Notes under the pieces: generated by a model
Databases searched by the model: none
Told to the model about the DNA's origin: nothing
What the model saw: the letters and a program-made list of their open reading frames with translations, nothing else
Source: Candidatus Acidiferrales bacterium
Lineage (GTDB): Bacteria; Patescibacteriota; Microgenomatia; Levybacterales; UBA12049
Direction of reading: 5' to 3'
DNA: 64,000 nucleotides
NCBI GenBank assembly: GCA_035533875.1
Contig: DATLSZ010000038.1
Location: 355 to 64,354 of the forward strand
Part shown: one piece after another, positions 25,868 to 41,053 of the stretch
How the letters are laid out: each line of letters starts with the position of its first letter
How positions within the stretch are numbered: position 1 is the stretch's first letter
Translations under genes and position numbers: made by a program

Positions 25868-25911
25868 TTTATTGAGCCTATTGTATCAAGATTGTTTATA
25901 ATTAGAAAGTC

Positions 25912-26766: not shown

Positions 26767-26768
26767 GA

Positions 26769-27743: not shown

Positions 27744-27750
27744 AAACTAT

Positions 27751-27826: not shown

Positions 27827-27833
27827 GGGAAAT

Positions 27834-28358: not shown

Positions 28359-28438
28359 AATTTTCAATTTTTAATGAATTTCCAATGATTCAATTTTCAA
28401 ATGTTTAAAACATTGAAAAATTGCTATTTGATTGAAAA
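28357..28438. repeat. AT-rich TTGAAAAT/ATTTTCAA word-palindrome element (sibling of 17691-17802)
   Basis: Shares the 19-mer ATAATTTTCAATTTTTAAT. Internal palindrome TTCAAATGTTTAAAACATTGAAAAA. Confidence 0.7.
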
Positions 28439-29566
28439 TTAAATCGATATTAGCTTTCTCGCCTTTACTGCATTATTATATACTTTTTTTATGTCGTCTC
28501 CAATGACGGTTATATGTCCCATTTTCCTTTCAGGTTTCGTGTCTTTCTTGCCGTAGATATGGATATACGCACCAGGGATTGCAAGCACTTTATCCATTCC
28601 TTTTACATCAACCGGTCCGAGGCGCTCGCCAAGAATATTTATCATCACAGCAGCTGGCACAAGCATGGCTGGGTTTCCGAGTGGTAATCCTGTTATTGCC
28701 CGGATATGCTGCTCAAATTGTGATGTCGCGCATGCTTCAGTCGTATAATGGCCACTGTTGTGGACACGGGGTGCTATCTCATTGATGAGTACTTCATTAT
28801 CCTTCGTAAGGAACATTTCGATACCAAAAACTCCTGCGCCGTGCAGATGCTCCATAGTTTGAATCGCAAAATTCTTTACTTTATCTGCGATTTTTTTATC
28901 AACGCGTGCTGGTGCGATCGTGGTGTGAAGAATATTATTTTTGTGAATTGTCTCAACGACCGGATAGGGGACGATTTCTCCGTCCATACTTCGCGCGATC
29001 ATGATCGCAAGTTCTTTGACGAAGGGTACGAATTTTTCAACGTACAGTTTGCGATCACCGAATTTTTCAAGTGCTTTATCAATATCTGCAGGTTTTTTTA
29101 TCAGTGCGTTGCCCCGTCCGTCGTATGCGTCAAAGCGTGCTTTGAGAAGAAAAGGATAGCCGAATTTTTTGACTGCAGTAAGAATATCAGTTTTATTTTC
29201 TACGGCAACATAAGGGGCGACAGGAACACCTACTTTGGTGAGAAATTCTTTTTGGGTAAATTTATTTTTAATCGTTTCTATTGTTTTGGGAGAAGGATTG
29301 ACCGGCATACCTTCTTTGACGAGTTCGGATAGCGTGTCGGTGTTGATGTGTTCTATTTCAACAGTGATATAGTCTGAAACTTTTGCGAGTTCACGTGTTG
29401 CTTTGGCATCACTGTAGCCTCCGGTAATCTCCCGATCCACCACTTGTCCCGCTGGAGATCCGGGTGTCGGATCGGTGACCGTGACGGTAAATCCCATGCT
29501 TTTGGCGGGTAATGCCATCATCTTTCCTAATTGTCCACCGCCGACAATCCCGATTCTATTTTTCAT
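28439..29566 (-). CDS. purK: N5-carboxyaminoimidazole ribonucleotide synthase (ATP-grasp)
   Basis: IGIVGGGQLGKMM N-terminus, ATP-grasp core and NEIAPRVHNSGH. Confidence 0.9.
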   Translation of the reverse strand: MKNRIGIVGGGQLGKMMALPAKSMGFTVTVTDPTPGSPAGQVVDREITGGYSDAKATRELAKVSDYITVEIEHINTDTLSELVKEGMPVNPSPKTIETIKNKFTQKEFLTKVGVPVAPYVAVENKTDILTAVKKFGYPFLLKARFDAYDGRGNALIKKPADIDKALEKFGDRKLYVEKFVPFVKELAIMIARSMDGEIVPYPVVETIHKNNILHTTIAPARVDKKIADKVKNFAIQTMEHLHGAGVFGIEMFLTKDNEVLINEIAPRVHNSGHYTTEACATSQFEQHIRAITGLPLGNPAMLVPAAVMINILGERLGPVDVKGMDKVLAIPGAYIHIYGKKDTKPERKMGHITVIGDDIKKVYNNAVKARKLISI

Positions 29567-29576
29567 AATTACTATT

Positions 29577-29653
29577 CGTTATTGCGAACGAAGTGAAGCA
29601 ATCCCAATCGAGATTGCTTCGTCACGCATTATCATGCGTTCCTCGCAATGACG
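29577..29653. repeat. Nested-palindrome intergenic element, copy 2 (divergent)
   Basis: CGTTATTGCGAACGAAGTGAAGCAATC ... GATTGCTTCGTC ... CTCGCAATGACG. Overlaps the last 10 codons and stop of purB. Confidence 0.85.
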
Positions 29654-31049
29654 TATTATTAGATACTTTATTAATTTCTTCAACCAACTTTTTTGCACGT
29701 TCCGGGGCAGTGCCGACATGAGATCGCACATCAAGAAGTTTTTCAATTTCCTCTTTTGACAGATATTTGGTTATCTTTTCATTTTTTTGCAGAAGCTCTC
29801 TCATCGGGTTTGGTTTGGCATCTGCGACTTCCTGCCATGCCTTCATGGAGATTTCCCGTAGAATTTCATGCATTTCTTGCCGGTCTGCACCCTTTTTAAC
29901 TGTTTCAATAATAATAAGTTCCGTTGCTGAAAACGGTGCGAATTTTTGCAGATTATTTTCTACTTGTCCCTTATGAACGATCAGTCCGTCAATTATGTTA
30001 TTGCTTGAAACAAGAATATCTTCAAGCGCCAGGAACATCTCGGGGATGTACGCACGTCTGTTGGCCGAGTCATCAAGTGTCCGTTCAAGAAGCGAAAGGG
30101 ATGCATTGTCCCAGGCGTTTTTCGAAAGGTTCTCCACAAATCTCGCAAGTGAGCAGATCTGCTCTGATTTCCGGGGATTTCGTTTGAACGGCATAGCGCT
30201 TGAGCCGACTTGTTTGTTACCGAACGGTTCCTGCCATTCGCCGATTCCTGCTGACTGCATGAGGCGGACATCAAATGCGAATTTGTTGAGCGACTGAGCG
30301 ATAGAGCTTAGAAGTTGTGCTACGAACAGATCTGCTTTTCTCGGGCCGACTTGATTACTGATAAGTACAGGATCGAGTCCGAGCTTATTCATCACATTTT
30401 TTTCCATGTCTGTTGTTTGGGTTTTATCAAGAAGACTTGTATAGCTTGCCTGGGTGCCGACAGCGCCTTTGAAACCTTTTGCTCTGTAGCGTGATTTGAC
30501 AAAACGTAGCAGCGTGAGATCTTCGAGGAAATCCTGCGCGTAGATTGACAATCGATAGCCGACGGTTGTCGGTTCGGCCGGCTGCAGATGGGTATAGCCC
30601 ATGCAAGGAGTGTCGGCATATGTTGAGATTTGACTGGCAAATGACTTGAGTGTTTCTTTGAGTTTGGTTTCTATAATAGTGAGGGATTCGTTCATACGGA
30701 TAGAATCGGTATTGTCAACGATATCCATACTTGTCGCACCAAGATGGATTTTGCCCCCTCCTACCTTTGCTTTTTCGGCAAATTCTTTGATGGCCGCTAC
30801 GATATCATGTTTGGTCTCCTTCTCAATTTCCAATATTCTTTCGATGTCGATGTCGTTCTGATTTTTTTTCAGATCCTCAAGTTCTTCTTGTGATATTAGT
30901 CCGAGTCCGGTTTGTGCAGTTGCTAATTCGACCCAGATCCGTCGCATGATTTTGAATTTATTTTTTTCGGACCAGATGTGACGCATTTCTTCTGACCCAT
31001 AGCGCCAGGTAAAGGGGGATTGGTATGTGGTAAAGTTTTGTTTACTCAT
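29622..31049 (-). CDS. purB: Adenylosuccinate lyase
   Basis: Fumarate-lyase superfamily signature GSSAMPFKRNP. The C-terminal TSLRGTHDNA* is encoded by the repeat element. Confidence 0.9.
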   Translation of the reverse strand: MSKQNFTTYQSPFTWRYGSEEMRHIWSEKNKFKIMRRIWVELATAQTGLGLISQEELEDLKKNQNDIDIERILEIEKETKHDIVAAIKEFAEKAKVGGGKIHLGATSMDIVDNTDSIRMNESLTIIETKLKETLKSFASQISTYADTPCMGYTHLQPAEPTTVGYRLSIYAQDFLEDLTLLRFVKSRYRAKGFKGAVGTQASYTSLLDKTQTTDMEKNVMNKLGLDPVLISNQVGPRKADLFVAQLLSSIAQSLNKFAFDVRLMQSAGIGEWQEPFGNKQVGSSAMPFKRNPRKSEQICSLARFVENLSKNAWDNASLSLLERTLDDSANRRAYIPEMFLALEDILVSSNNIIDGLIVHKGQVENNLQKFAPFSATELIIIETVKKGADRQEMHEILREISMKAWQEVADAKPNPMRELLQKNEKITKYLSKEEIEKLLDVRSHVGTAPERAKKLVEEINKVSNNTSLRGTHDNA

Positions 31050-31056
31050 AATTATT

Positions 31057-31124
31057 CGTCATTGCGAGCGAAGCGCGGCAATCTCTTTTGGGATTGCTTC
31101 GTCGTTTCACTCCTCGCAATGACG
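31057..31124. repeat. Nested-palindrome intergenic element, copy 3
   Basis: CGTCATTGCGAGCGAAGCGCGGCAATCTCTTTTGGGATTGCTTCGTCG...CTCGCAATGACG, between purB and purH. Confidence 0.9.
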
Positions 31125-31128
31125 TGCG

Positions 31129-32685
31129 TTAGTGCCAAAAGGCACGGCGTCCGGTAAAGATCATTGGTATTCCTGCTTTGTCTGCTGCATCAATTGACTG
31201 CTGGTCATTGACCGAGCCGCCCTGCTGGACAACTGCTGCGATTCCATGTTTCACTGCAAGCTCTACACTATCTCCAAACGGGAAAAAGCTGTCTCCGACC
31301 AGAATACCGTCTTTAGTATACTTGCCTGCCTGCTCTATGGCAATCTTTGTCGAGCGGACACGAGAGGTCTGACCCGATCCGATACCACGAGTCATCGGGA
31401 TAGTTTTATCCATCACAAGTACGGTGTTGGATTTGATTTTGGTGATAAATTTCCAACCAATTTGCATTTGTTCCAGTTGTTGTTTGGTGGGCTTTTTCTT
31501 TGTCACGACCTGCCATTGTTTGAATGATTCATCGATGTCGATGTCGGCTGTTTGGAGCACAAATCCCCCGTCAATTGATTTCAGATTCCATTCGTCTGAC
31601 AAAGAGGGGATATCACCAAAGGAATAAATGCCCATTGATTTACGAACTTTTTGCAGGAATGCGAGAGCGTTTGGTTTGATAGACGGCACTGCGATGATAT
31701 CCATATTACCTCTCTTTGCATCTTTAAATCCGCCGATGACTTTTGCTGCCGCAAGATCCATGGGCTTGTTCAGAACAATTATACCGCCGAATGCCGATTC
31801 AGGATCTCCTTCAATCGCGTTGCTCAATGCTTCGTCCAATGTATTTCCCAGAGCCGCACCGCAAGGACTGTTGTGTTTGATCACTGCGGCGGCTGGTTGA
31901 TCAAATAATCGTACGACATCAAGACCGGCGTTGATATCAGTGACATTAACCAGTGACAGATCCCGACCCCAATGTTTGGTGAGATGATTAAACGGTGTTG
32001 CCACATTTGGTCTGGTATACACGGCACCTTTTTGATGGGGATTTTCACCATAACGTAAATCAATGAGTTTCCTTCCGGGAATGGTAATTTCTTGAGGGAA
32101 TATTGTTTCATCCATTTGTGATCTTAAGTACCATGCGATCTGGCTGTCATAAAAAGTGAGGTGGTCAAAAGCTTTTGCCTGGAGGTAACGGAGGAGTTTC
32201 ATGTCGATTTTTTTCGGCAGCGCATCAGTGACTGTTTGATAATCCGAAGGATCGGTAACAACTATGAGTCCATTTTTGGCTGCTGCGCGGATCATGGTCG
32301 GGCCGCCGACGTCGATGTTCTCTATTGCTGTTTTATAACTTACTTTTTTATCTGCGACGGTTTTTTCAAACGGATAAAGGTTGCAAACGACGATGTCGAT
32401 TTGCGGGATTTTTAGTTGTTTTGCTTCTGCTACATGTTTGGCGTTTGATCTATCATAGAGAAGCGCGGATTCGATTTGGAAACTGATGGTTTTCATCCGT
32501 CCATCAAAACTTTCGGGATTGCCGGTGATTTTCTGGATAGGAGTGATTTTGATGTTTGATTTTTCTAATTCTTTTGCGGTGCCGCCGGTGGAGATGATTT
32601 CGTAGCCTGCTTTGATAATTGCCTCGGCAAAGGGGACAATGTCTGTCTTGTCAGAAACACTAATGAGCGCGTATTTTTTACTCAT
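31129..32685 (-). CDS. purH: Bifunctional AICAR transformylase / IMP cyclohydrolase
   Basis: ALISVSDKT MGS-like N-terminal domain and C-terminal AICARFT domain ending RRAFWH. Confidence 0.92.
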   Translation of the reverse strand: MSKKYALISVSDKTDIVPFAEAIIKAGYEIISTGGTAKELEKSNIKITPIQKITGNPESFDGRMKTISFQIESALLYDRSNAKHVAEAKQLKIPQIDIVVCNLYPFEKTVADKKVSYKTAIENIDVGGPTMIRAAAKNGLIVVTDPSDYQTVTDALPKKIDMKLLRYLQAKAFDHLTFYDSQIAWYLRSQMDETIFPQEITIPGRKLIDLRYGENPHQKGAVYTRPNVATPFNHLTKHWGRDLSLVNVTDINAGLDVVRLFDQPAAAVIKHNSPCGAALGNTLDEALSNAIEGDPESAFGGIIVLNKPMDLAAAKVIGGFKDAKRGNMDIIAVPSIKPNALAFLQKVRKSMGIYSFGDIPSLSDEWNLKSIDGGFVLQTADIDIDESFKQWQVVTKKKPTKQQLEQMQIGWKFITKIKSNTVLVMDKTIPMTRGIGSGQTSRVRSTKIAIEQAGKYTKDGILVGDSFFPFGDSVELAVKHGIAAVVQQGGSVNDQQSIDAADKAGIPMIFTGRRAFWH

Positions 32686-32789
32686 TGATAATACTATTAT
32701 AACGTATCTTTCATAATAAATCCAGTTTAATTAAATGACTATGGGTTGAATCGAAAAGTGAGAATGCCAAACTTCCAGTGAACGTGCAG

Positions 32790-33596
32790 TTATTTCTTAA
32801 AATACTCCATTGCATTTTTGAAGAGCTGAAGACCCGGAGCGAAGTCAGGGAGCTTTTTCCCTTCATCAAGATATTCTTCTTTCAGTGATTGCCAATTAGG
32901 GAGTTGGGTGAAGAACATTGCTCGTTCCGGATGCGGCATGAGACCAAGAATTCTTCCGGATTCATCGGTGATGCCGGCGATGTCATCAATTGACCCGTTG
33001 GGGCTTGCCGGAAGATTGAGATACTCACACATTTCTCCTTTGAAGTACCGGAAAGCAACAAGCTTCTTTTTATTAATTTCCTTAAGTACTTTGTCTGTTG
33101 CATAGAGTTTGCCTTCACCATTGGACACTGGGATTGAAAGTGTTTTGATACCTTTTAACCAAGGTGAGTTGGGATTATCAACTTTCAGATCGACAAATCG
33201 TACGGTATAGCGGGGGATTTCATTGTGCATGAGGCCGAGTTCGCGGTTGCCGTACTCGGCTTGTAACGCGGGGAGTAAGCCGAGATTAACCAGTATCTGA
33301 AAGCCGTTACAGATGCCGATTACGAGTTTGTCTTCTTTGATAAATTGTTGTAGATCTTCCCAAAGATGATTTCTCAGCTTGTTGGCATAGGCATTGCCTG
33401 CTCCGGTATCATCGCCGTACGCGAATCCTCCACCAACTGCAAGGATCTGATAATCGGAGAGTTTGTACTTTCCGGCAATCAGATCATTGATATGCACGAT
33501 ATCACCGGTGCCGCCTGATGCTTCAAAAGCAAATTTTGTTTCTTCTTCACAATTCAGCCCGTAACCGGAAAAGACTAAGACTTTTGGTTTGTTCAT
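32790..33596 (-). CDS. purQ: FGAM synthase, glutaminase subunit
   Basis: GICNGFQIL catalytic Cys and PHPER motif. Start moved to ATG at 33596 (MNKPKVLVF); the track start is 33650. Confidence 0.85.
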   Translation of the reverse strand: MNKPKVLVFSGYGLNCEEETKFAFEASGGTGDIVHINDLIAGKYKLSDYQILAVGGGFAYGDDTGAGNAYANKLRNHLWEDLQQFIKEDKLVIGICNGFQILVNLGLLPALQAEYGNRELGLMHNEIPRYTVRFVDLKVDNPNSPWLKGIKTLSIPVSNGEGKLYATDKVLKEINKKKLVAFRYFKGEMCEYLNLPASPNGSIDDIAGITDESGRILGLMPHPERAMFFTQLPNWQSLKEEYLDEGKKLPDFAPGLQLFKNAMEYFKK

Positions 33597-33682
33597 ATAT
33601 TTTTTGTTTCGCTCGGAACGAAATTTTTTCTTGAATACAGACTTCGTCATCCATTCTGCGAAAAAAATTTATTCCTCGCTTT

Positions 33683-36600
33683 TTAATAATCTTTAAATGT
33701 ATCTCTATATGTGTTTGTTGCTTTTGTCAGATCGAAATTTACCAGTTCATGTTTTCCAGATTTTATGATAAGTTCGGGACTTTTCGTTACTTTTCCGATG
33801 AGCTGGAATGCATTGCCTTCCATTATTTTTTCAAACGCTGCTTTGTTGGTTGGTTTGATTGTTACGACGATCCGTCCCTGCGATTCGGCATAGAGTGCAT
33901 GATGGTCGGATGAAGTTTTGCCTGGCAGGTTATTCAGATCAACTTCCAATCCCAGCTGGCCGCCAATTGCAGTTTTTGCCAACGCAACGGCGAGTCCGCC
34001 TTTGGTTACTGAGATGCTTGAAGCAAGCAGTCTTTTTTGTACAGCGTTGTAGACAGCCAGATAAAGGTTGTAATTTTTCTTAGCATTAACAGAAGGTACC
34101 TGATTGCTCTGGAAATTTTTCTTTTTTTCCTCACTCAGCATCGCATAATATTCGGATCCGCCGAGCTCATCAAATGTTTCCCCCAGCACATAGATCAGAT
34201 CACCTGAATTTTTGACATCAAGTGAGACTACTGTTGTGATATCTTCCACAACGCCGATTGATGAGATAAGAAGAGTTGGAGGAATGGAAATTTTTACCGG
34301 CTCCCCTTTTTCGTTAAATCCATTAAAGTCATTGAACATGCTGTCTTTACCTGCGATATACGGCGTGCCGTACGCGACTGCGTAGTCATAACAAGCTTTA
34401 GCCGACTGTTTCAGCTGACCCAAGCGCTCAGGCTCAGTTGATGAACACCAAAAAAAGTTATCCAAGATTGCCAGGTAGTCAGGGTTTGCGCCGTTTGAGA
34501 CAGCATTTCTGATGGCAGTATCGATACTTGCCGCGGACATCTTATATGCATCGATTTCAGTATAGTTGGGATAAAAACCTTGTGAGAGAATCACGCCTTT
34601 TTGTGAAGATAATACCGGCCGGAAGACACTTGTTTCACCATTGACTCTGCCTTTGCCCTGAAGCGGTGGCAGTACCGAGTTCCCTTGCACAACATAATCG
34701 TATTGATTGCTGATAAAAGCATAACTTGTGATGTTAAGACGTGTTAGCATTGTTTCTAATGATGAAGTGAAGGTAGTTGTTTTCGGCAATGGCGGTTCAA
34801 CAAAAAGTGGAGGGTTATAGGTTGTCGTTGTCGGCCGCTGCGGCAAGCCGTAGTGCAAAAATTGCAAATCAATATCCATGATTGTTTTTTTATTGTAGTG
34901 AACGACACATTTGCCGGAGTCGGTGAATTTGCCAATGACACTTGTCTCTACTCCGCGGCTCTCCATAAGACCTACGAATTTTTTCAGGTTTTTCGGTGGA
35001 ACCGCAAGCGTCATCCGTTCTTGGGATTCAGATATCCATATCTCCCATGGTTCAAGTCCAGGATATTTCAACGGTACTTTTTCAAGATCTACAAGACAGC
35101 CGTTTGATTCTTTGGCCATTTCGGCAACCGAGCAGGAAAGTCCGCCTGCTCCGTTATCAGTAATACTGTTATAGAGAAGTAAATCACGGGCTTCTTTGAC
35201 GAGCGCGTCACTGAGTTTCTTTTGCGTTATCGGGTCACCTATTTGAACTGCTGTTGCCGGACTTCCCGTATCCATGGCTTCTGAAGAAAAGGTCGCTCCG
35301 TGGATGCCGTCTTTGCCAACGCGATTGCCGATGACGACGATATAATCACTCGGCATGGCTTTTTTGAGGTGAGAGAGTTTTCCTTTAATTTTTCTTGGGA
35401 TTAGCCCGATGGTTCCGACAATGACTAGCGGCTTTCCACGGAACCGCTCATCAAAATAGACAAATCCCTGCGGTGTCGGGATACCTGATTGATTGCCTCC
35501 TTCATTGACCCCTTGGATAACACCATCCATAATTCTTTTTGCTGAGAGCATTTTCTGCGTGAAGTTCGGACCTTTATACAACGGTACATCAACTCTCGGA
35601 TCCGCAAAACAAAACCCATAATAATTCGCAACAGGCTTGGCACCGAGACCAAATCCGATTGTATCGCGATTAACACCCACAATTCCGGTGATTGCTCCGC
35701 CGAAGGGATCAAGCGCTGATGGACTGTTATGTGACTCAGCTTTATGTGTCACGAGATATTCATCATCAAAAGCGATGCCTCCCGAATTATCCGTAAAGAC
35801 AGAGACACAAAAGTCGTCCTTTCCTTTGTCCTCACGGATCTTTTTTGTTGCACCCTGAATATATGATTTATATATACCATCTTTGATCTCATCCATCGGA
35901 TTTGCGAAGATGGTATGCTTGCAATGTTCTGACCAAGTTTGGGCAAGTGACTCTATCTCGATATCCCGTGGTTTTCTTCCGAGTTTTTTAAAATACTTTT
36001 GGATTGCTTTCATGAATGCCAGATCAAGCGCCAAGGGTCCTCGTCTTGTCCCGTCGGGATTGGCAATTCCTGCTTTGCCGATTTTTGCAAGTTCCTCGTC
36101 AGTTATATTCAGATCTACTTCATCAGCACTTGGCACTTTGGTGAGTTTGACATTTGGGGCGACCACATCCATACCACCGTCTTCTTCAAATTGTTTTCTG
36201 GATTTGATATGAGCTCTTTGGATCAGGGGATTATACATGCTGTTGGCAAGTTCCGTCACTTCATTTTCGGTAAGGCTGCCTTTGATAAACGTCACTTGTG
36301 AAGTGTATACTCGTTCTTCACCGTCAAATGTTATTTTGAGCAGATCCGTCGCGATTTCCTGTACAGTGTGTGACACATTATCGGTAACACCCGGCAAGTA
36401 GCCGATTTCGATTGCCCAGTCAAATTTATCAAGCGTATAGCGTTTAGCGTCTAGCGTATAGTTATTTTTTTCATTTATTAATTGATAAATTTGCGTAACC
36501 GGATTGCACAAAGCGGATGCGAGTTTGGAAAGATCATCACTTGAGAGTTTTTTATCAATAGTATAGATATCAAGAAGAAAAATATTTGTGATTTTTTTTG

Positions 36601-36685
36601 AGTTAATGATGTTGCTGAAAGTTTTTTGCCGGACGGCAGCGCGGGAGTCAAATACAGTCGTTGCAATCTCGATTCTTGTTATCAT
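33683..36685 (-). CDS. purL: FGAM synthase II with a long N-terminal extension (PurS-like region fused to PurL)
   Basis: 1000 aa against roughly 740 typical. HNSPSALDPFGGAITGIVGVNRD and duplicated AIRS domains. Confidence 0.88.
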   Translation of the reverse strand: MITRIEIATTVFDSRAAVRQKTFSNIINSKKITNIFLLDIYTIDKKLSSDDLSKLASALCNPVTQIYQLINEKNNYTLDAKRYTLDKFDWAIEIGYLPGVTDNVSHTVQEIATDLLKITFDGEERVYTSQVTFIKGSLTENEVTELANSMYNPLIQRAHIKSRKQFEEDGGMDVVAPNVKLTKVPSADEVDLNITDEELAKIGKAGIANPDGTRRGPLALDLAFMKAIQKYFKKLGRKPRDIEIESLAQTWSEHCKHTIFANPMDEIKDGIYKSYIQGATKKIREDKGKDDFCVSVFTDNSGGIAFDDEYLVTHKAESHNSPSALDPFGGAITGIVGVNRDTIGFGLGAKPVANYYGFCFADPRVDVPLYKGPNFTQKMLSAKRIMDGVIQGVNEGGNQSGIPTPQGFVYFDERFRGKPLVIVGTIGLIPRKIKGKLSHLKKAMPSDYIVVIGNRVGKDGIHGATFSSEAMDTGSPATAVQIGDPITQKKLSDALVKEARDLLLYNSITDNGAGGLSCSVAEMAKESNGCLVDLEKVPLKYPGLEPWEIWISESQERMTLAVPPKNLKKFVGLMESRGVETSVIGKFTDSGKCVVHYNKKTIMDIDLQFLHYGLPQRPTTTTYNPPLFVEPPLPKTTTFTSSLETMLTRLNITSYAFISNQYDYVVQGNSVLPPLQGKGRVNGETSVFRPVLSSQKGVILSQGFYPNYTEIDAYKMSAASIDTAIRNAVSNGANPDYLAILDNFFWCSSTEPERLGQLKQSAKACYDYAVAYGTPYIAGKDSMFNDFNGFNEKGEPVKISIPPTLLISSIGVVEDITTVVSLDVKNSGDLIYVLGETFDELGGSEYYAMLSEEKKKNFQSNQVPSVNAKKNYNLYLAVYNAVQKRLLASSISVTKGGLAVALAKTAIGGQLGLEVDLNNLPGKTSSDHHALYAESQGRIVVTIKPTNKAAFEKIMEGNAFQLIGKVTKSPELIIKSGKHELVNFDLTKATNTYRDTFKDY

Positions 36686-37341
36686 TATAACGTATTTATC
36701 AGCTCTATTGTAACAGATTTTAATGATTTTACAACCATATCAGCGTGTGAGAAATCGTGTTCTTTAGTGTACTCATTCGGTACCGCGATGATTTTCATAC
36801 CAGCAGTATGAGCGGAAAGAATACCTGTGTGTGTATCTTCTAATGCAAGACAATTCTCAGGTTCTACTCCCAATTGTTTGGCTGTATGCAAATAAATATC
36901 AGGGTGTGGTTTGTGTTTTCTCATTTCGCTCGGTCCGACAATCACGTCGAAATACTCTTTAACTCTCAGTTCATCAAGAATAAGATGAATATGCCCGATA
37001 TATCTATTTGACGCAAGTGCAAGTTTCAATTTACTCTTTTTAATTATATCTAGCAGTTCAAAAAAACCATCAAACGGTTTTAATCCTCCATTTTTTACCA
37101 GTTGTTCAAAAATAATACGTTTTTTTGCTTTTAATGTATCCGGGTCAAGGGGAAGCTGATATTTTGATATAAGGTTTGTATAATAAGTTTTTCCTGCTCC
37201 TCCAATCTGGTGAATGAGTCCATTATCATTCAATTGCGGTTTTTTTCCGAATTCTTTGACAATTTGTTCAAGGGCACGTGATTCGAGGATTTCGGTGTCA
37301 ACGATGAGACCATCCATGTCAAAGATTACTGCTTGTATCAT
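36685..37341 (-). CDS. HAD-superfamily hydrolase IA embedded in the pur operon
   Basis: FDMDGLIVDTE motif I. Overlaps purD by 4 nt and purL by 1 nt (TAATG). Confidence 0.8.
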   Translation of the reverse strand: MIQAVIFDMDGLIVDTEILESRALEQIVKEFGKKPQLNDNGLIHQIGGAGKTYYTNLISKYQLPLDPDTLKAKKRIIFEQLVKNGGLKPFDGFFELLDIIKKSKLKLALASNRYIGHIHLILDELRVKEYFDVIVGPSEMRKHKPHPDIYLHTAKQLGVEPENCLALEDTHTGILSAHTAGMKIIAVPNEYTKEHDFSHADMVVKSLKSVTIELINTL

Positions 37342-38603
37342 ATTTTTCCGATATCTTTGCGGAATTGCATGCCGGGGAAATGGATGCCTTTTTTGCCGAT
37401 CTGTTTGTAGGCCTTCTTCAGCGCTTCATCAAGGGTTTTTCCCGTCGCAGTTATTCCGACAACCCGTCCGCCATTGGTGACGACATTGCCATCGACTTCT
37501 TTTGTTCCCAAATGCATCACGACAACATCATCCGGTACGTTCTCAAGTCCGCTAATGATGTCGCCTTTGTGGGAACTTGCAGGATAGCCGGCTGAGGCAA
37601 GGATAATACAGCAGGCGAATCTCTTTGCCCATGTGACGATAATTTTGTCCAATGTTCCGTCAACACAGGCGTATAAAAATTCGTAAAGATCACTATCCAA
37701 TAGCCGCATGTAGGACTCAAATTCCGGATCACCAAAGCGAGAGTTGAACTCGACGACTTTGGGCCCATCTTTGGTCATCATGAGTCCCGGATAGAGACAG
37801 CCGACAAAAGGCATCCCGCGTTTTTTCAATTCTCGTATTGCTGGCAGTACTATTTTTTCTTTGATTTCTTCCAGTTGTTTCTTGCTGACCTCAGAAAGCG
37901 GGGCGATCGTACCCATGCCGCCAGTATTGGGACCTTTATTGCCGTCATAGATTGGCTTGTGATCACGGGACGTGGGGAACATGACAACATGGTCGCCATC
38001 GGAAAATGCATGGATTGAGACTTCCTTTCCAGTCATGAACTCTTCAATGACTATTTCATCACCGGCATTGCCAAAGATTTTGTTGATCATCGCATCATCA
38101 ACTGCCGCAAGCGCTTCATCAAGTGTTTGTGCAACGACAACACCTTTGCCGAGCGCAAGCCCGCTCGCTTTGATCACAATCGGCGCGCCGTGCTTTTTCA
38201 CATACGCTTTTGCTTTTTTGGCATCGGTAAATGTTTCATATTTTGCTGTCGGGATATTTGCGTCTTTCATGAGCTGCTTGGCAAATGCTTTGGAAGATTC
38301 TATTTGTGCTGCTTCTTTTGTTGCTCCGAAGATTTTGAGTCCTGCTTTTTGAAACGCATTAACAATACCGGCAGCAAGAATATCATCGGGACCTGCTACC
38401 GTTAGATCGATCTTATTCTTTTTGGCAAAGGCAATTTGTGTCTCAAAATCCGTTGCGGGGATGTTTGTATTTATTCCAATAGTAGCAGTGCCAGGATTGC
38501 CGGGCGCAAAATAAATCTTGCCGACCTGAGGTGACTTGGCAAGTCTCCAGCCGAGTGCGTGCTCACGCCCGCCGGAGGCAATAATTAGAATATTTTTCTT
38601 CAT
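37338..38603 (-). CDS. purD: Phosphoribosylamine-glycine ligase (GAR synthetase)
   Basis: ILIIASGGREHAL N-terminus, ATP-grasp core and EFNSRFGDPE. Confidence 0.92.
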   Translation of the reverse strand: MKKNILIIASGGREHALGWRLAKSPQVGKIYFAPGNPGTATIGINTNIPATDFETQIAFAKKNKIDLTVAGPDDILAAGIVNAFQKAGLKIFGATKEAAQIESSKAFAKQLMKDANIPTAKYETFTDAKKAKAYVKKHGAPIVIKASGLALGKGVVVAQTLDEALAAVDDAMINKIFGNAGDEIVIEEFMTGKEVSIHAFSDGDHVVMFPTSRDHKPIYDGNKGPNTGGMGTIAPLSEVSKKQLEEIKEKIVLPAIRELKKRGMPFVGCLYPGLMMTKDGPKVVEFNSRFGDPEFESYMRLLDSDLYEFLYACVDGTLDKIIVTWAKRFACCIILASAGYPASSHKGDIISGLENVPDDVVVMHLGTKEVDGNVVTNGGRVVGITATGKTLDEALKKAYKQIGKKGIHFPGMQFRKDIGKI

Positions 38604-38608: not shown

Positions 38609-38701
38609 AGTATTAAGTATGAAGTATAAAGTATAAAGTATAAAAAATCTATAAATAAATTAAATAAAATACTTAATACCTGATACTAAATACTTTATAC
38701 T
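38609..38701. repeat. Stuttering inverted repeat of (A)GTAT(A/T)AA words
   Basis: Left arm AGTATTAAGTATGAAGTATAAAGTATAAAGTATAAA. Right arm ATACTTAATACCTGATACTAAATACTTTATACT. Lies between purD and purF-N. Confidence 0.75.
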
Positions 38702-40826
38702 ATTTCCCCCATGGGAAGGTGCCGCGGCTTACATCAATTCCGGATCGTAGCACATGCAGGACTCGTTTGACAGCAGTTGGTAAGAAGAGATATTCTGTTT
38801 CACGGATTCTTTTTTCCCAACTTTCCGATGTGTCATCTGGATGACGGTGGACCTCCGCTTTAAGGACAACTGGACCGACGTCAAATTCGTTATCAGGCAG
38901 TATCTGATGGACAGTAAATCCCGAAACTGGGAGGCCTTGCGTAAACGGATCCGTTATGACATGAGCTCCGCGAAAAACAGGGATAATACCTTGAGAGGTT
39001 TTGATGATCTTTGCGTCATCGGAAGAGAGCAGTGCAGGATGCTGATTGATGACCGGAATTTCTTGAGCTTGTGCTTCTTTAAGGAACGTATCTCCAAAAA
39101 TAAAATTCCAGCCTGCAAGCTGGATAAGATCTGGTTTTACTTTGTTGATATGTTGCATCAATTGCTCTTCGTAGTGCATCCTCTCAGTTTTATCTGTTCG
39201 CTTTCCTTGGTAGGGAAGAACAAAGGTCGGGATCTTGTGTTTCTTCGCGCGGGTTAATCCATAAGCATCCGGATTGTTGGAGACGACACTGACGATTTGA
39301 GCGTCCAGATCTCCGCTTTCTATTGCGTCAATCATCACTTGCAGGTTGGTGCCACTTCCTGAGATAAAGATACTGATTTTTGGTTTGCCAGTAATTTTAT
39401 GTTTCTTTTTGGGAAATTCTTCCTGTTTGCCTCTGATCGGGTGTGGTCCGCCAAACGGAGTCCAGTAAAAATCTTTTGGTTTGCCGCCAAACGCTTTTGT
39501 TGTTTCTTCGATGGGTAAATAAACCACGGCATCTGCTTTGACATGATCGGCAACTTTTTGCTCGATGACATCAAACGGCTCTTTTTCAAATTTTGCTGCT
39601 GGTAATTCATTTTTTGCTCGCATATCTATTCCCAGGTCACATTGATCAACGACCGGCGGACTGGCAAAGGCAATAAATATTTCTTTGACACCTGCTTCAC
39701 GGAATTTTTTTACCAACGCAGTACTTGTCGTTAATCTGACGCCAGAATCATCAACGATAACAACTTTTTTGCCTCTGATTTCATCGGGGACGATGTTGTG
39801 CTTGCCGTTGACTGCGGTAATCCGATTGTTTTGTCCGGGCTGGATAAAAGTCCGTCCGACATAATGGCTTGTGGTGATGGCATCAACCATTGGTATCCCA
39901 AGTTCATGCGCTACTCCTTTGGCAGCAGGATATCCGGAATCAAATGTCGGAACGACGACATCAGGTATAATTCCTTTTTCTTTCATTCGCTTTCCTAGCA
40001 AGTGTCCTGATGCTTCACGTCCCGCGCGGATTCTTATGCCATTGACAAAACTGTCAGGCCTGTCGAAATAGACACATTCGAAGAGGCAGTATTGTGGACG
40101 TTTGGGTTCACCGAAAAAGAATGAAGTTAGCTGACCCTTTTTGTTTATTCTAATAATTTCTCCAGGTTTTACTTCGCGAATAAAATCGGCGCCGATTGCA
40201 TCAATCGCCGCTGACTCGGATGCGATGATCCATCCATTCTCAAACTGTCCCAAACAAAGCGGGCGGATCCCATAAGGATCTCTGACGCCGAAGATTGATC
40301 CATTATTGGTAAGTATTGTCAGTGAATACGCGCCGTTAAATTGCGGAAGGACATCCATAAGTGTATCAACCCAGTTTTTATGATTTTTTCTTTCTTTATG
40401 GATCAGCGCTGTCATCAGCTCGGTATCACCAGAAGCGGCAAATCTGCTGCTTAGCTGGTGTCTGATATTTGAGACAGTGGGAATATTGCCGTTATGTCCA
40501 AGACTCAGCTGGTATTTCCCGTGCAGCATAGCTATCGGTTGCGCGTTGCCTTCATGTGATCCTCCAAATGTCGCATAGCGGTTTTGTGCTATAGCTGTGT
40601 GTCCCGGACCTAATTTTTTCAATACACTCTCGGTGAGTACGTGAGGAACAAGTCCCATTTTTTTGTAGGTGGATATTTTACCGTCGGGATTGAGTACGCT
40701 TAAGCCAGCACTCTCTTGCCCTCGATGCTGCAGTGATGCCGAAGCTCTTCTTGCTATGTATGGAGCGGTATCGTCAGCAGACCAAACTCCGACGACTCCG
40801 CATTTTTCTCTCAGATACGTTTTCAT
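38700..40826 (-). CDS. purF: Amidophosphoribosyltransferase fused to GAR transformylase (PurF-PurN fusion)
   Basis: The N-terminus has the MCGVVG-type Ntn Cys (KCGVVGV) and a PRT domain. The C-terminal 200 aa has ISIFISGSGTNLQ and INQHPALL of PurN. Confidence 0.88.
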   Translation of the reverse strand: MKTYLREKCGVVGVWSADDTAPYIARRASASLQHRGQESAGLSVLNPDGKISTYKKMGLVPHVLTESVLKKLGPGHTAIAQNRYATFGGSHEGNAQPIAMLHGKYQLSLGHNGNIPTVSNIRHQLSSRFAASGDTELMTALIHKERKNHKNWVDTLMDVLPQFNGAYSLTILTNNGSIFGVRDPYGIRPLCLGQFENGWIIASESAAIDAIGADFIREVKPGEIIRINKKGQLTSFFFGEPKRPQYCLFECVYFDRPDSFVNGIRIRAGREASGHLLGKRMKEKGIIPDVVVPTFDSGYPAAKGVAHELGIPMVDAITTSHYVGRTFIQPGQNNRITAVNGKHNIVPDEIRGKKVVIVDDSGVRLTTSTALVKKFREAGVKEIFIAFASPPVVDQCDLGIDMRAKNELPAAKFEKEPFDVIEQKVADHVKADAVVYLPIEETTKAFGGKPKDFYWTPFGGPHPIRGKQEEFPKKKHKITGKPKISIFISGSGTNLQVMIDAIESGDLDAQIVSVVSNNPDAYGLTRAKKHKIPTFVLPYQGKRTDKTERMHYEEQLMQHINKVKPDLIQLAGWNFIFGDTFLKEAQAQEIPVINQHPALLSSDDAKIIKTSQGIIPVFRGAHVITDPFTQGLPVSGFTVHQILPDNEFDVGPVVLKAEVHRHPDDTSESWEKRIRETEYLFLPTAVKRVLHVLRSGIDVSRGTFPWGK

Positions 40827-40838
40827 ACGAATAATTAC

Positions 40839-40876
40839 TCCGAATCGATCCGAATATAATTGCCTTTGTATTCGGA
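40839..40876 (-). promoter_or_regulatory. 5'-UTR hairpin with a competing second arm overlapping the purF Shine-Dalgarno
   Basis: On the minus-strand RNA, AUCCGAAUA pairs with UAUUCGGAU (9 bp). A second AUUCGGA copy overlaps GGAG 11 nt upstream of the AUG. Confidence 0.35.
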
Positions 40877-40931
40877 TTAATTTGGACTAATTATCGAACT
40901 CACTCGTACCTCGCCATGTCATTGTAAAGAT

Positions 40932-40955
40932 CAAAAAACCCGCAGTTATGCGGGT
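40932..40955 (-). terminator. Intrinsic terminator (minus strand)
   Basis: ACCCGCA-UAAC-UGCGGGU followed by UUUUUU on the minus strand. There is no U-run on the plus strand. Confidence 0.7.
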
Positions 40956-41018
40956 ACGAAAAAATCGACTACAAGTAACTTACTATTTAAAGCGAAAAGA
41001 CAAGCCATGAACAAGAGC
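40932..41018 (-). ncRNA. Candidate ~87-nt leader RNA / sRNA upstream of the pur operon
   Basis: Bounded by a perfect consensus promoter (41025-41053) and the intrinsic terminator. Contains a 20-codon ORF (41008-40946) with no SD. Confidence 0.45.
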
Positions 41019-41024
41019 AATCTA

Positions 41025-41053
41025 ATTATAGGTTGCTTTTACAGCAGTGTCAA
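41025..41053 (-). promoter_or_regulatory. Consensus sigma70 promoter (minus strand)
   Basis: TTGACA (41053-41048), exactly 17 nt, TATAAT (41030-41025). Confidence 0.7.

What the first reader, a model, noticed from the sequence alone, without database searches (positions are those of the whole stretch)
40827..41053. Consensus promoter, ~87-nt RNA and intrinsic terminator upstream of purF: a candidate attenuator or riboswitch-like leader of unknown class
SEEN: the minus strand has a textbook TTGACA-17 nt-TATAAT (41053-41025). About 65 nt downstream of the predicted start lies ACCCGCA-UAAC-UGCGGGU plus U6 (40955-40932), and the purF ATG follows about 105 nt later. I could not find a second convincing promoter between the terminator and purF. 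The leader contains a 20-codon ORF (MACLFALNSKLLVVDFFVPA*, 41008-40946) with no SD, and its stop codon lies in the terminator loop. Closer to purF, the hairpin AUCCGAAUA/UAUUCGGAU has a competing second AUUCGGA copy that overlaps the GGAG Shine-Dalgarno. ESTABLISHED: promoter, aptamer or leader, terminator, then operon is the standard architecture of transcription-attenuation control, and pur operons are often controlled this way. INFERENCE: this is either a read-through-regulated leader for the whole pur operon or an independent sRNA. I do not see the conserved cores of the purine, ZTP, PRPP or THF riboswitch classes as I remember them, so it may be a new class or protein-mediated.
Basis: partly seen in the sequence, partly recalled or inferred. 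Interest (0 to 1): 0.55.

Follow-up and report, generated by a model that had tools for sequence, protein, structure and literature searches.

The report
Leader-peptide attenuator before purine operon
Upstream of the purine-synthesis genes of this uncultured (Levyibacteriota, candidate phyla radiation) bacterium sits a conserved strong promoter, a tiny translated reading frame and a transcription terminator. Together they look like a ribosome-controlled on/off valve for the operon rather than a riboswitch, a type of control not described before for purine genes or for this group of bacteria.

Summary
A perfect TTGACA-17-TATAAT lies at 41053-41025(-), the only 12/12 site in 64 kb. A 7-bp GC hairpin plus U6 lies at 40955-40932. 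A 20-codon ORF stops in the hairpin loop, and purF (in fact a PurF-PurN fusion) starts 106 nt later.

The riboswitch reading is not supported. Rfam gave no hit in the window or in 38 related loci. RNAalifold on 25 orthologous leaders found only the terminator helix. No antiterminator is predicted.

What is conserved in 28 of 31 related purF-N loci:
- the consensus promoter;
- an ATG 5-19 nt after the -10 box;
- a short ORF whose peptide sequence is not conserved;
- an ACCCGC/GCGGGU terminator, followed in most relatives 0-21 nt later by the purF start.

The ORF ends 13-16 nt before the terminator stem in 15 of 29 leaders, against 1.5 expected (P<1/3000). In the rest, including the window, it mostly runs into or through the hairpin. 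The genome lacks Shine-Dalgarno sites and uses leaderless starts, so the missing SD is no objection.

Best explanation: a translation-coupled attenuator of the pyrBI/pyrE type. The signal is probably purine-NTP-dependent RNA polymerase speed; this step is unproven. The downstream "SD-competing" hairpin is a lineage-specific array of ATTCGNAT repeats.

The parts
41048..41053 (-). -35 hexamer TTGACA of the pur-operon promoter
   Evidence: 12/12 match; only perfect site in 64 kb; conserved in relatives.
41025..41030 (-). -10 hexamer TATAAT. The predicted transcription start is about 41018-41019.
   Evidence: The start site is inferred from the usual 7-nt spacing and was not measured.
40946..41008 (-). 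Leader ORF of 20 codons plus stop, MACLFALNSKLLVVDFFVPA*. Its ATG lies 16 nt after the -10 box and its stop codon TAA (40948-40946) lies in the terminator loop.
   Evidence: Homologous ORFs occur in L124 (MICQFALNSKIKVVVFSYPA*, stop also in the loop) and L039.
40959..40964 (-). U6 tract 3 nt upstream of the terminator stem. It lies inside the leader ORF in the window and after the stop codon in most close relatives.
   Evidence: positions -13 to -4 relative to the stem are U-rich in the close clade.
40938..40955 (-). Terminator hairpin ACCCGCA-UAAC-UGCGGGU (7 bp, 5 G-C pairs).
   Evidence: The helix is conserved in 25 of 25 aligned leaders, and 2 pairs show compensatory changes.
40932..40937 (-). 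U6 tail of the intrinsic terminator.
40827..40931 (-). Lineage-specific spacer between attenuator and purF. It carries an array of near-palindromic ATTCGNAT/ATNCGAAT repeats that folds into a long hairpin (arms 40831-40859 / 40866-40894) adjoining the purF AUG; in the predicted fold the start codon is base-paired in the extended stem. It is not part of the conserved attenuator.
   Evidence: Analogous arrays occur in L123 and L124.
38700..40826 (-). purF-purN fusion gene (amidophosphoribosyltransferase plus GAR formyltransferase, 708 aa), the first gene of the controlled operon.
   Evidence: Pfam GATase_6/7, Pribosyltran, Formyl_trans_N.
24109..38603 (-). Rest of the co-oriented purine cluster: purD, HAD, purL, purQ, purH, purB, purK, purE, purC, EamA transporter, purM, HAD.
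   Evidence: Co-transcription with purF-N is inferred from orientation and short gaps. Some genes have their own -10-like boxes.

Best explanation
This is a conserved cis-acting transcription attenuator for the purine-biosynthesis operon of Levyibacteriota, and it works through translation of a tiny leader ORF rather than through a ligand-binding RNA.

Proposed sequence of events:
- A very strong sigma-70-type promoter starts an RNA whose 5' end carries an AUG, at or within about 10 nt of the start site. In this SD-less organism, where leaderless mRNAs are common, that AUG is a normal way to load ribosomes.
- About 60 nt downstream lies a strong intrinsic terminator with no competing antiterminator, so termination is the default. 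That yields an RNA of about 87 nt and leaves the operon off.
- The leader ORF is placed so that its stop codon puts a ribosome against the 5' arm of the hairpin (13-16 nt upstream in most relatives) or on top of it (in the hairpin loop in this window).
- If the first ribosome follows RNA polymerase closely, the hairpin cannot close. The polymerase then reads through into purF-N and the pur cluster.

The regulated variable is therefore the coupling between polymerase and the lead ribosome, as in E. coli pyrBI and pyrE.

The most likely signal is purine-nucleotide supply acting on polymerase speed. The last codons of the ORF are A/purine-rich, and the 3' arm of the hairpin (GCGGGU) needs a run of GTP. 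Low ATP or GTP would slow the polymerase, let the ribosome catch up, and switch the operon on.

Status of each step:
- Shown: the anatomy, its conservation, the ORF-terminator spacing and the absence of a conserved RNA fold.
- Inferred: translation of the ORF, ribosome-dependent read-through and, most weakly, the nature of the signal.
For: (1) Conservation. Promoter, leader and ACCCGC/GCGGGU-U terminator lie upstream of purF-N in 28 of 31 distinct related loci, down to 55% protein identity. The -10-to-stem distance is 63-74 nt (exactly 69 in 8 of 12 close relatives) although the intervening sequence is unalignable.

(2) Read-through is required. In 22 of 29 leaders the purF start codon lies 0-21 nt after the T-tract. 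This terminator type occurs essentially only at this position in about 220 kb of related DNA, and intrinsic terminators are rare in the window.

(3) The ORF.
- An ATG lies at +5 to +19 from the -10 box in 14 of 14 family representatives; shuffles give a mean of 3.15 and a maximum of 9.
- The first-ATG ORF ends 13-16 nt before the stem in 15 of 29 leaders, against 1.55+/-1.2 in shuffles. For representatives the figures are 8 of 14 against 0.69+/-0.81, with 0 of 5000 shuffles reaching this.
- After correcting for the choice of window, P<1/3000.
- The spacing holds although ATG position (6-18), ORF length (4-16 codons) and leader length (37-74 nt) vary.
- The remaining ORFs mostly run into or through the hairpin (window, L124, L011, L039, L040).
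- The window and L124 keep the stop in the loop despite offsetting length differences in the U-tract and stem.

(4) The peptide sequence is not conserved, but the ORF 3' end is 57% A and 71% purine, against 36% A earlier in the ORF and 32% A after the stop.

(5) The host translation style fits. SD motifs occur before 5 of 46 genes, and -10 boxes are enriched 4-10 nt before start codons (12, against 3 at control offsets).

(6) There is no RNA-sensor alternative. Rfam finds nothing, the only consensus helix is the terminator, and the upstream part folds weakly (window leader z = -1.0).

(7) Experimental precedent.
- In E. coli a terminator is almost fully repressed when the stop codon is a few bp upstream. 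Efficiency was about 0.12 at 17 bp in one construct series and about 0.8 at 18 bp in the other, and is maximal only beyond 30 bp (PMC4824070).
- pyrBI uses a short ORF plus an NTP-sensitive tract (PMC3641672, PMC5021804).
- In pyrE the position of the upstream stop codon relative to the attenuator matters (PMC2784333).
- mgtM is proposed to sense ATP through conserved adenines in a short ORF whose peptide is not conserved (PMC3641672).
Against: - There are no expression data of any kind. The transcription start, termination and translation of the ORF are all predicted.
- The spacing of 13-16 nt is at the edge of, not inside, a ribosome footprint, so blocking of the hairpin rests on E. coli data and steric argument.
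- Four relatives have only a 4-6-codon ORF (L008 type) and may use an additional upstream promoter.
- The window's own leader lacks the A-rich block. Its ORF ends with a U-rich stretch, which by analogy with pyrBI would sense UTP, the wrong nucleotide.
- The purine-rich ORF end could simply reflect Lys/Arg codons in an AT-rich genome.
- The far clade has a conserved 5' motif, GAAUGCUCA-N6-AAGCAU. It is read in different frames in different relatives, so it is not explained by coding.
- The near-invariance of the stem sequence (CCGC/GCGG in 24-25 of 25 leaders) may point to a sequence-specific factor.
- The sequences are related, so the shuffle statistics overstate independence, although at least 8 unalignable leader families agree.
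- In the window, 106 nt with a strong hairpin separate the attenuator from purF, so additional or different control may act there.
Confidence: 0.55

Rival explanations
1. A protein-mediated (or other trans-factor) attenuator. An RNA-binding regulator recognises the conserved terminator stem and/or the conserved 5' motif and decides between termination and read-through. The small ORF would be incidental, or would only load ribosomes.
For: - The terminator stem sequence is almost invariant (CCGC/GCGG in 24-25 of 25 leaders, always C-rich 5' and G-rich 3'), although loops and flanks drift.
- The far clade keeps GAAUGCUCA-N6-AAGCAU at the 5' end, in different reading frames.
- No antiterminator structure exists, as would be expected if a factor acts directly.
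Against: - It does not explain the conserved ATG, the ORF, or the 13-16-nt stop-to-stem spacing across unalignable leaders.
- No candidate RNA-binding regulator is linked to the locus; neighbouring genes differ between relatives.
- The 5' motif is absent from the window's clade.
Confidence: 0.15
2. A constitutive 'leaky terminator'. The strong promoter and terminator simply set a fixed low operon output, or produce an abundant RNA of about 87 nt or a 12-20-aa peptide with its own function. There would be no conditional control.
For: - Promoter and terminator define a discrete small transcript of conserved length.
- No sensor element can be identified.
- One relative, L006, does without the leader and has a leaderless purF directly behind the same type of promoter.
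Against: - The peptide sequence is not conserved, so a functional peptide is unlikely.
- The RNA body is not conserved either, so a trans-acting sRNA is unlikely.
- A consensus promoter followed by a strong terminator is a wasteful way to obtain low constitutive expression.
- It does not explain selection on stop-codon position.
- The element always sits 0-21 nt before purF rather than moving independently.
Confidence: 0.12
3. A new riboswitch or other directly ligand-sensing RNA. The leader would bind a purine-pathway metabolite and stabilise or destabilise the terminator.
For: - Its position, upstream of a biosynthetic operon and with an intrinsic terminator as expression platform, is typical of riboswitches.
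- The window's close clade shares CAUGGUCACCCA and GAUUUUGUCGA blocks.
Against: - No Rfam hit appears even at E<=10.
- There is no conserved helix other than the terminator and no covariation upstream.
- The upstream part folds weakly, and the window leader is no better than shuffles (z = -1.0).
- Sequence between the ATG and the terminator is unalignable between clades, while the length is kept.
- There is no alternative pairing partner for either terminator arm.
Confidence: 0.06
4. In the window specifically, purF is driven mainly by a second, repressor-controlled promoter inside the 106-nt spacer, with the ATTCGNAT repeats acting as PurBox-like operators. The upstream attenuator would then be vestigial here.
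For: - The spacer is an array of CGAA/TTCG-core repeats in AT-rich context. That resembles the published description of Bacillus PurBoxes (PMC8789054).
- L123 has a TATAAA box 9 nt before its purF ATG, downstream of its array.
- The window has weak -10-like boxes in the spacer.
Against: - No site of at least 9/12 lies in the spacer.
- The window's attenuator is fully intact (perfect promoter, ORF, terminator) and matches L124 and L039.
- The geometry differs from PurBoxes: 16 nt between CGAA and TTCG, where about 26-27 nt would be expected.
- No PurR-like gene was seen in the 40 window ORFs scanned against Pfam.
Confidence: 0.1

Closest known systems
E. coli pyrBI attenuator (pyrL leader peptide)
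   Same: - A promoter-proximal short ORF, then an intrinsic terminator just before the first biosynthetic gene.
- No amino-acid-sensing codons.
- The ORF runs into or through the terminator (the window, L124, L039 and L040 show this arrangement).
- A closely following ribosome suppresses the hairpin.
- The sensed quantity is an NTP, acting through polymerase speed (PMC3641672, PMC5021804).
   Different: - This operon makes purines, not pyrimidines.
- There is no sequence or Rfam relationship.
- The ORF is 4-26 codons and starts at or near the 5' end without an SD.
- The candidate NTP-sensitive tract is A/purine-rich in most relatives rather than U-rich.
- The host is a candidate-phyla-radiation bacterium.
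- Function is untested.
E. coli rph-pyrE attenuator
   Same: A reading frame ends shortly before an intrinsic terminator. The distance from stop codon to hairpin determines how well the ribosome suppresses termination (PMC2784333). This matches the 13-16-nt arrangement seen in most relatives.
   Different: There the upstream frame is a full-length gene (rph), not a dedicated mini-ORF with its own promoter.
Salmonella mgtCBR leader ORF mgtM (ATP-sensing attenuation)
   Same: - A short leader ORF whose peptide is not conserved.
- Conserved adenines, with conserved position relative to RNA structures.
- A proposed mechanism in which ATP-dependent polymerase pausing changes transcription-translation coupling (PMC3641672).
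   Different: - mgtM acts through alternative stem-loops and has no canonical intrinsic terminator.
- High ATP turns mgtC on, which is the opposite logic to that expected for a purine operon.
Classical amino-acid attenuators (trp, his, leu leaders)
   Same: A leader peptide plus an intrinsic terminator upstream of a biosynthetic operon.
   Different: Those have runs of regulatory codons and mutually exclusive antiterminator/terminator hairpins. Neither is present here.
Known purine-operon controls: the guanine/adenine riboswitch, ZTP and PRPP riboswitches, Bacillus PurR/PurBox, E. coli PurR
   Same: The same target pathway. B. subtilis also uses a terminator-based leader for its pur operon.
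   Different: There is no match to any of these RNA families. The PurBox-like repeats occur only in the window's sub-lineage, downstream of the attenuator and with different spacing.

Membership tests
Known riboswitch families (purine RF00167, ZTP/pfl, PRPP/ykkC-2b, THF and others in Rfam 15) | Covariance-model match at the family's gathering score. | tested here: not met
   There were 0 hits at gathering score in the window and in 38 loci. At E<=10 on 40600-41300 there were only sub-threshold miRNA and sRNA chance hits.
Riboswitch (generic, including a new class) | A conserved aptamer, meaning helices supported by covariation and invariant core nucleotides upstream of the expression platform. 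| tested here: not met
   RNAalifold on 25 and on 12 leaders predicts only the terminator helix. Upstream folding energies are -2 to -10 kcal/mol.
Riboswitch or classical attenuator | A mutually exclusive antiterminator that pairs with one arm of the terminator. | tested here: not met
   No alternative pairing appears in the MFE folds of 24 leaders. The only 7-nt complement to the 5' arm region in the window lies downstream of the terminator and is at chance level (I7).
Intrinsic (Rho-independent) terminator | A GC-rich hairpin of 5-10 bp with a short loop, followed directly by a U-tract. | tested here: met
   The hairpin has a 7-bp stem with 5 G-C pairs, a 4-nt loop and U6. It is conserved, with 2 covarying pairs. 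Actual termination was not measured.
Ribosome-coupled (pyrBI/pyrE-type) attenuation | A short ORF begins near the 5' end of the leader. | tested here: met
   An ATG lies within +5 to +19 of the -10 box in 14 of 14 representatives, against 3.15 expected. The window ORF is 41008-40946.
Ribosome-coupled (pyrBI/pyrE-type) attenuation | The ORF ends close enough to the terminator, or overlaps it, for a ribosome to hinder hairpin closure. | tested here: met
   The stop codon lies 13-16 nt before the stem in 15 of 29 leaders, and in the rest mostly inside or beyond the hairpin; P<1/3000. This is the range in which E. coli terminators are ribosome-sensitive (PMC4824070).
Ribosome-coupled (pyrBI/pyrE-type) attenuation | An NTP-sensitive pause tract in the leader that couples polymerase speed to the end product. 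| tested here: inconclusive
   The ORF 3' end is 57% A and 71% purine, and the 3' arm of the terminator is G-rich. The window's own ORF end is U-rich, and composition could reflect codon content. Pausing is not testable here.
Ribosome-coupled (pyrBI/pyrE-type) attenuation | The leader ORF is translated, and read-through depends on that translation. | not testable with these tools
   Only indirect support exists: the genome lacks SD sites, and leaderless-type starts are common.
Amino-acid (trp/his-type) leader-peptide attenuation | A cluster of codons for the regulating amino acid in the leader peptide. | tested here: not met
   The peptides are not conserved, and apart from Lys runs at the C-terminal end of the close-clade peptides no repeated-codon cluster is shared across the leaders.
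Bacillus-type PurR/PurBox operator (for the spacer repeats only) | Two 14-bp AT-rich boxes with a central CGAA/TTCG in inverted orientation, 16-17 bp apart, near the promoter, and a PurR protein encoded in the genome. | tested here: inconclusive
   CGAA/TTCG cores in AT-rich context are present and clustered. The spacing differs and the array is downstream of the promoter. No PurR was seen in the 40 window ORFs scanned, and the rest of the genome is unavailable.
Independent trans-acting sRNA gene | Conserved RNA sequence or structure, and a position independent of one particular downstream gene. | tested here: not met
   The RNA body is not conserved. The element is always immediately upstream of purF-N while the upstream neighbours vary.

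The most novel reading that the evidence does not exclude
This is the first purine counterpart of the pyrimidine (pyrBI/pyrE) nucleotide-sensing attenuators. It would be an antiterminator-free device built on a leaderless mini-ORF, in which ATP/GTP-limited RNA polymerase is caught by the first ribosome, which then masks a terminator whose G-rich 3' arm and A-rich approach act as the sensor. It would also be the first cis-regulatory mechanism worked out for a candidate-phyla-radiation bacterium. It would show how an SD-less organism with many leaderless mRNAs and very few transcription factors regulates a 13-gene pathway.
Probability: 0.35. Interest if true: 0.72.

Novelty: new variant of a known kind. 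Interest (0 to 1): 0.6.

Why it matters
Purine operons are known to be controlled by repressors (PurR) and by riboswitches. Leader-peptide, ribosome-coupled attenuation has been the textbook speciality of pyrimidine and amino-acid operons in enterobacteria.

A conserved version in front of the whole purine pathway of Levyibacteriota would extend that logic in three ways:
- to a new pathway;
- to a deeply branching, uncultured lineage with tiny genomes;
- to a translation system without Shine-Dalgarno sequences, where the ribosome is loaded at the 5' end.

The natural variation gives a ready-made mutational series for testing how close a terminating ribosome must be to block an intrinsic terminator. 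The variants are: stop codon 13-16 nt before the hairpin, stop inside the loop, stop beyond the terminator, and complete loss of the leader in L006.

It is also a caution for automated riboswitch hunts. A promoter, a short leader, a terminator and a biosynthetic operon do not by themselves imply an aptamer.

Tried and rejected
- Rfam at gathering score on the window and 38 loci, and at E<=10 on the leader, found nothing relevant.
- RNAalifold for a conserved aptamer found only the terminator helix.
- My early impression of a covarying stem (GGUCA/UGACC, GGUUA/UAAUC, GGCU/AGUC) in the close clade was not recovered by RNAalifold. It coincides with codons 1-3 and the end of the ORF, so I dropped it.
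- A search for an antiterminator partner of either terminator arm found none.
- The metagenome scan with the PurF-N alignment was wasted. Its peptide patterns were too general and returned only generic PurF at about 40% identity. I therefore could not test whether the leader occurs before other genes.
- Three of the 12 contig look-ups returned no DNA.
- The spacer is not a repeat or mobile element copy: there is no other copy in the window or loci. Window-wide, ATTCGNAT is at chance frequency (13 against 16.5 expected); only its local clustering is significant.
- A programmed frameshift or slippage on the A-run that would carry ribosomes through the terminator was considered. The +1 frame is open through the hairpin in most close relatives but not across clades, and this may be compositional. 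It remains unresolved and is not claimed.
- The long upstream ORF in L008-type leaders (MEIAKPILTQQK...) was considered. Its conservation is better explained by the embedded TTGAC-N17-TATAAA promoter.
- Literature searches for a purF or pur-operon leader peptide, or for CPR purine riboswitches, found nothing relevant in the held library.
Full report
**1. What is in the sequence**

Read on the minus strand, the 272-nt interval between purF and a divergent 116-aa membrane-protein gene (41099-41449, +) contains the following.
- A perfect TTGACA-17 nt-TATAAT at 41053-41025.
- After 16 nt, an ATG at 41008 that opens a 20-codon frame, MACLFALNSKLLVVDFFVPA.
- A U6 run at 40964-40959.
- The hairpin ACCCGCA-UAAC-UGCGGGU at 40955-40938, followed by U6 at 40937-40932. 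The stop codon TAA (40948-40946) sits in the hairpin loop.
- The purF ATG at 40826, which follows 106 nt later.

The promoter is the only 12/12 site in the 10-kb scan and in the whole window. Apart from a gene-end terminator at 109-133(+), this is the only canonical intrinsic terminator outside an ORF in 64 kb.

Two corrections apply:
- 'purF' encodes a 708-aa PurF-PurN fusion.
- It heads a 13-gene, 16.7-kb co-oriented cluster that holds the whole de novo purine pathway: purD, HAD, purL, purQ, purH, purB, purK, purE, purC, EamA, purM, HAD.

**2. Who it is and what relatives look like**

The fusion protein has hundreds of homologues. The record titles of the related genome contigs that name a lineage place them mostly in Candidatus Levyibacteriota / Patescibacteria. 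I collected 31 distinct related purF-N loci from genome contigs and from contigs encoding specific homologues.

In 28 of them the same architecture precedes the gene:
- a near-consensus promoter;
- a leader with a nearly constant -10-to-stem distance (63-74 nt; exactly 69 in 8 of 12 close relatives; 37-40 in a four-member short form);
- a terminator with an almost invariant stem ACCCGC/GCGGGU plus U5-8.

The upstream neighbours differ between loci: prfA plus a small membrane protein, adenosine deaminase, IMP dehydrogenase or a methyltransferase. The element therefore travels with purF.

In 22 of 29 leaders the purF start codon lies only 0-21 nt after the T-tract. That leaves no room for another promoter, so purF expression must come from read-through. 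In about 220 kb of related loci this terminator type is found essentially nowhere else. One relative, L006, has lost the leader and carries a leaderless purF directly behind the promoter.

**3. Not a riboswitch**

- Rfam 15 gives no hit at gathering score in the window or in 38 loci; tRNAs in two control loci show that the search works. At E<=10 on the leader it gives only chance hits.
- Outside the promoter, the ATG and the terminator, the leaders of different clades cannot be aligned.
- RNAalifold on 25 leaders, and separately on the 12 closest, predicts a single helix, the terminator. Two of its pairs show compensatory changes.
- The part upstream of the terminator folds weakly (-2 to -10 kcal/mol). 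The window leader as a whole folds no better than shuffles (z = -1.0).
- Neither arm of the terminator has an alternative partner.

A conserved length combined with unconserved sequence and no fold is the opposite of an aptamer signature.

**4. The leader ORF is the conserved feature**

In this genome SD-like motifs precede only 5 of 46 genes, which is background. By contrast, -10-like hexamers are enriched 4-10 nt upstream of start codons: 12 occurrences, against 3 at control offsets. Leaderless or near-leaderless mRNAs are therefore a normal mode of expression here.

Every leader has an ATG 5-19 nt after the -10 box (14 of 14 family representatives; shuffles give a mean of 3.15 and a maximum of 9).

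The ORF opened by the first ATG ends 13-16 nt before the terminator stem:
- in 15 of 29 leaders, against 1.55+/-1.2 in dinucleotide shuffles;
- in 8 of 14 representatives, against 0.69+/-0.81, with none of 5000 shuffles reaching this;
- with P<1/3000 when the best 4-nt window is chosen afresh in every shuffle.

The spacing is held although the components vary: ATG at +6 to +18, 4 to 16 codons, leader length 37 to 74 nt. [quoted passage not shown]

The other leaders mostly have ORFs that run into or through the terminator:
- the window (stop in the loop);
- L124 (MICQFALNSKIKVVVFSYPA*, stop also in the loop, with the frame kept despite offsetting length differences in the U-tract and stem);
- L011 (stop in the loop);
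- L039 and L040 (stop beyond the T-tract; in L040 it forms TAATG with the purF start).

The peptides themselves are not conserved, for example MVTQLVKIYKKK, MVTHFIHTIKKK, MEMLSGQAFVNNFQKR, MRYRYNKHIITKR and MLRK. Composition is conserved: the last 12 nt of the ORF are 57% A and 71% purine, against 36% A earlier in the ORF and 32% A after the stop.

**5. Mechanism proposed**

With no antiterminator, termination is the default. The one thing positioned to interfere with the hairpin is a ribosome at or near the leader stop codon.

In E. coli this has been measured (PMC4824070):
- A terminator a few bp after a stop codon is almost completely repressed by the lead ribosome.
- Efficiency rises with distance. 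It was about 0.12 at 17 bp in one construct series and about 0.8 at 18 bp in the other.
- It is maximal only beyond 30 bp.
- Removing translation abolishes the repression.

The authors estimate that 10-15 nt of free RNA between the A site and the hairpin base are needed for full folding, and more if steric effects count. The conserved 13-16 nt therefore sits in the range where termination depends on whether a ribosome is there. The window's arrangement, with the stop in the loop, puts the ribosome on the 5' arm itself.

This is the logic of the enterobacterial pyrBI attenuator (ORF through the terminator) and pyrE attenuator (ORF ending just before it). In those systems UTP-limited polymerase is caught by the ribosome (PMC3641672, PMC5021804, PMC2784333).

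By analogy, I propose that purine-NTP supply sets polymerase speed through the A/purine-rich end of the ORF and the G-rich 3' arm (GCGGGU; always C-rich 5' and G-rich 3'). The model also draws on the Salmonella mgtM precedent, where conserved adenines in a short ORF with a non-conserved peptide are proposed to sense ATP.
- Low ATP/GTP: slow polymerase, coupled ribosome, read-through.
- High ATP/GTP: uncoupling, termination.

The anatomy and its conservation are shown. Translation, ribosome-dependent read-through and above all the identity of the signal are inferred. My estimates are:

| Claim | Probability |
|---|---|
| It is a cis-acting attenuator of the pur operon | about 0.9 |
| The leader ORF's translation is part of the mechanism | about 0.7 |
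| The signal is purine-NTP sensing | about 0.35 |

**6. What does not fit**

- The window's own leader, together with L124 and L039, lacks the A-rich block. Its ORF ends in a U-rich stretch.
- A four-member short form has ORFs of only 4-6 codons and possibly a second upstream promoter.
- The far clade conserves a 5' hairpin/palindrome, GAAUGCUCA-N6-AAGCAU, which includes the AUG and is read in different frames in different relatives. It is therefore an RNA- or DNA-level motif that I cannot explain.
- The near-invariant stem sequence could indicate a sequence-specific factor.

These points keep a protein-mediated variant alive as the main rival.

**7. The segment next to purF**

It is built from a local array of the near-palindromic 8-mer ATTCGNAT: TACGAG, GTTCGAT, ATCCGAAT, ATTCGGAT, ATTCGGAG, ATTCGTAT.

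The whole 106-nt spacer is missing from most relatives. Comparable arrays at the same place occur in the long-spacer relatives L123 and L124 (78-80% PurF-N identity), with partial copies in L005 and L039. Other equally close relatives have a 4-5-nt gap.

Over 275 kb, clusters of at least 3 motifs per 80 nt occur only at these three purF upstream sites, apart from one trivial coding hit. Window-wide the motif is at chance frequency. The arrays fold into significant hairpins in L123 and L124 as well (z = -3.2 and -3.8).

The CGAA/TTCG core in AT-rich context recalls the published description of Bacillus PurBoxes (PMC8789054). However, the spacing and position differ, and no PurR gene was seen. 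I regard this as a second, lineage-specific layer: a candidate operator, or a translational hairpin over the purF AUG. It is not part of the conserved attenuator. The SD-competition idea is unsupported because the genome does not use SD sequences.

**8. Comparison with what is known, and novelty**

The element works like pyrBI and pyrE, but it is not a member of any described family. There is no sequence or covariance-model relationship, the pathway is different, and the mini-ORF is leaderless and SD-free. I found no report of a leader-peptide attenuator for a purine operon, or of any purine leader in candidate-phyla-radiation bacteria, in the held literature.

I class it as a new variant of a known kind of system. 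It is of moderate to good interest: well supported by comparative statistics and directly testable, but with no experimental data and an unresolved signal.

Noticed in passing
window 38700-40826 (-): purF is fused in frame to purN (GAR formyltransferase), giving a 708-aa protein. The fusion is conserved in well over 100 homologues of roughly 650-760 aa, from Levyibacteriota and other Patescibacteria. A short propeptide precedes the catalytic Cys (MKTYLREK-C in the window; none in L013, L017 and L020).
   Followed up: partly
window, all gene starts (e.g. 13266, 25912->26766, 54989, 41099): The genome essentially lacks Shine-Dalgarno motifs (5 of 46 genes). TATAAT-like boxes sit 4-10 nt upstream of many start codons, which implies widespread leaderless mRNAs.
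   Followed up: partly
window 40827-40931 (-); L123 553-597; L124 174-203: Arrays of the near-palindromic 8-mer ATTCGNAT (CGAA/TTCG core, about 10-nt spacing in L123) lie between the attenuator and purF in L123 and L124, with partial copies in L005 and L039. They fold into long hairpins (z -2.9 to -3.8). They may be a PurBox-like operator or a translational control element.
   Followed up: partly
L008, L010, L014, L019, L015, L017, L020, L013 leaders (about 5-30 nt after the -10 box): A conserved motif, GAAUGCUCA-N6-AAGCAU, forms a 5-7-bp hairpin that contains the leader AUG. One compensatory variant occurs in L023 (UGCC/GGCA). The motif is read in different frames in different relatives, so it is not peptide-coding. 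Its function is unknown.
   Followed up: partly
L006 (JBPOIT010000012.1), about 50 nt upstream of purF-N: A natural variant without the attenuator: TTGACA-N17-TATAAT, 5 nt, then the purF ATG (leaderless). Oddly, the promoter spacer begins CCCGCATAAG, which resembles the window's terminator arm and loop.
   Followed up: no
L040, L001, L007, L122 (junction of terminator and purF): Frames that pass through the terminator often stop in overlap with the purF start (TAATG, ATGA). This hints at termination-reinitiation coupling from the leader frame into the SD-less purF start. It may instead be a by-product of base composition.
   Followed up: partly
window 43870-48953 (-) and 42503-43867 (+): A folate-biosynthesis cluster lies directly next to the pur cluster: DHPS (48117-48953), GTP cyclohydrolase I (47199-47762), class IV aminotransferase/PabC-like (46498-47202), a PabB-HPPK fusion (44619-46586), an F420-ligase-like protein (43870-44613) and a Mur-ligase/FolC-like protein (42503-43867). 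This is notable because PurN and PurH need formyl-folate.
   Followed up: no
window 24109-37341 (-): The pur cluster contains two HAD-family hydrolases (36685-37341, 24109-24756) and an EamA-type transporter (25912-26766) interspersed with the biosynthetic genes. In L041 the HAD domain is fused to purD.
   Followed up: no
window 15921-20073: A lipid-head-group cluster contains myo-inositol-1-phosphate synthase, a CDP-alcohol phosphatidyltransferase, a DAG-kinase-like protein and a CarS-like protein (Pfam PF01864, named for CDP-archaeol synthase). The last is an archaeal-type family, seen here in a bacterium.
   Followed up: no
window 1-133 (+): The only other canonical intrinsic terminator outside an ORF (109-133) follows a Lys-rich ORF that ends at 61-63. 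Its stop-to-stem distance is 45 nt, unlike the 13-16 nt of the purF leaders.
   Followed up: no
window 41020-41031 and 41089-41100: The purF promoter's -10 region and the -10 region of the divergent gene at 41099 form a 12-nt inverted repeat (CTATAATTA(A/G)AT). These are two back-to-back promoters, and the divergent gene appears to be leaderless.
   Followed up: no
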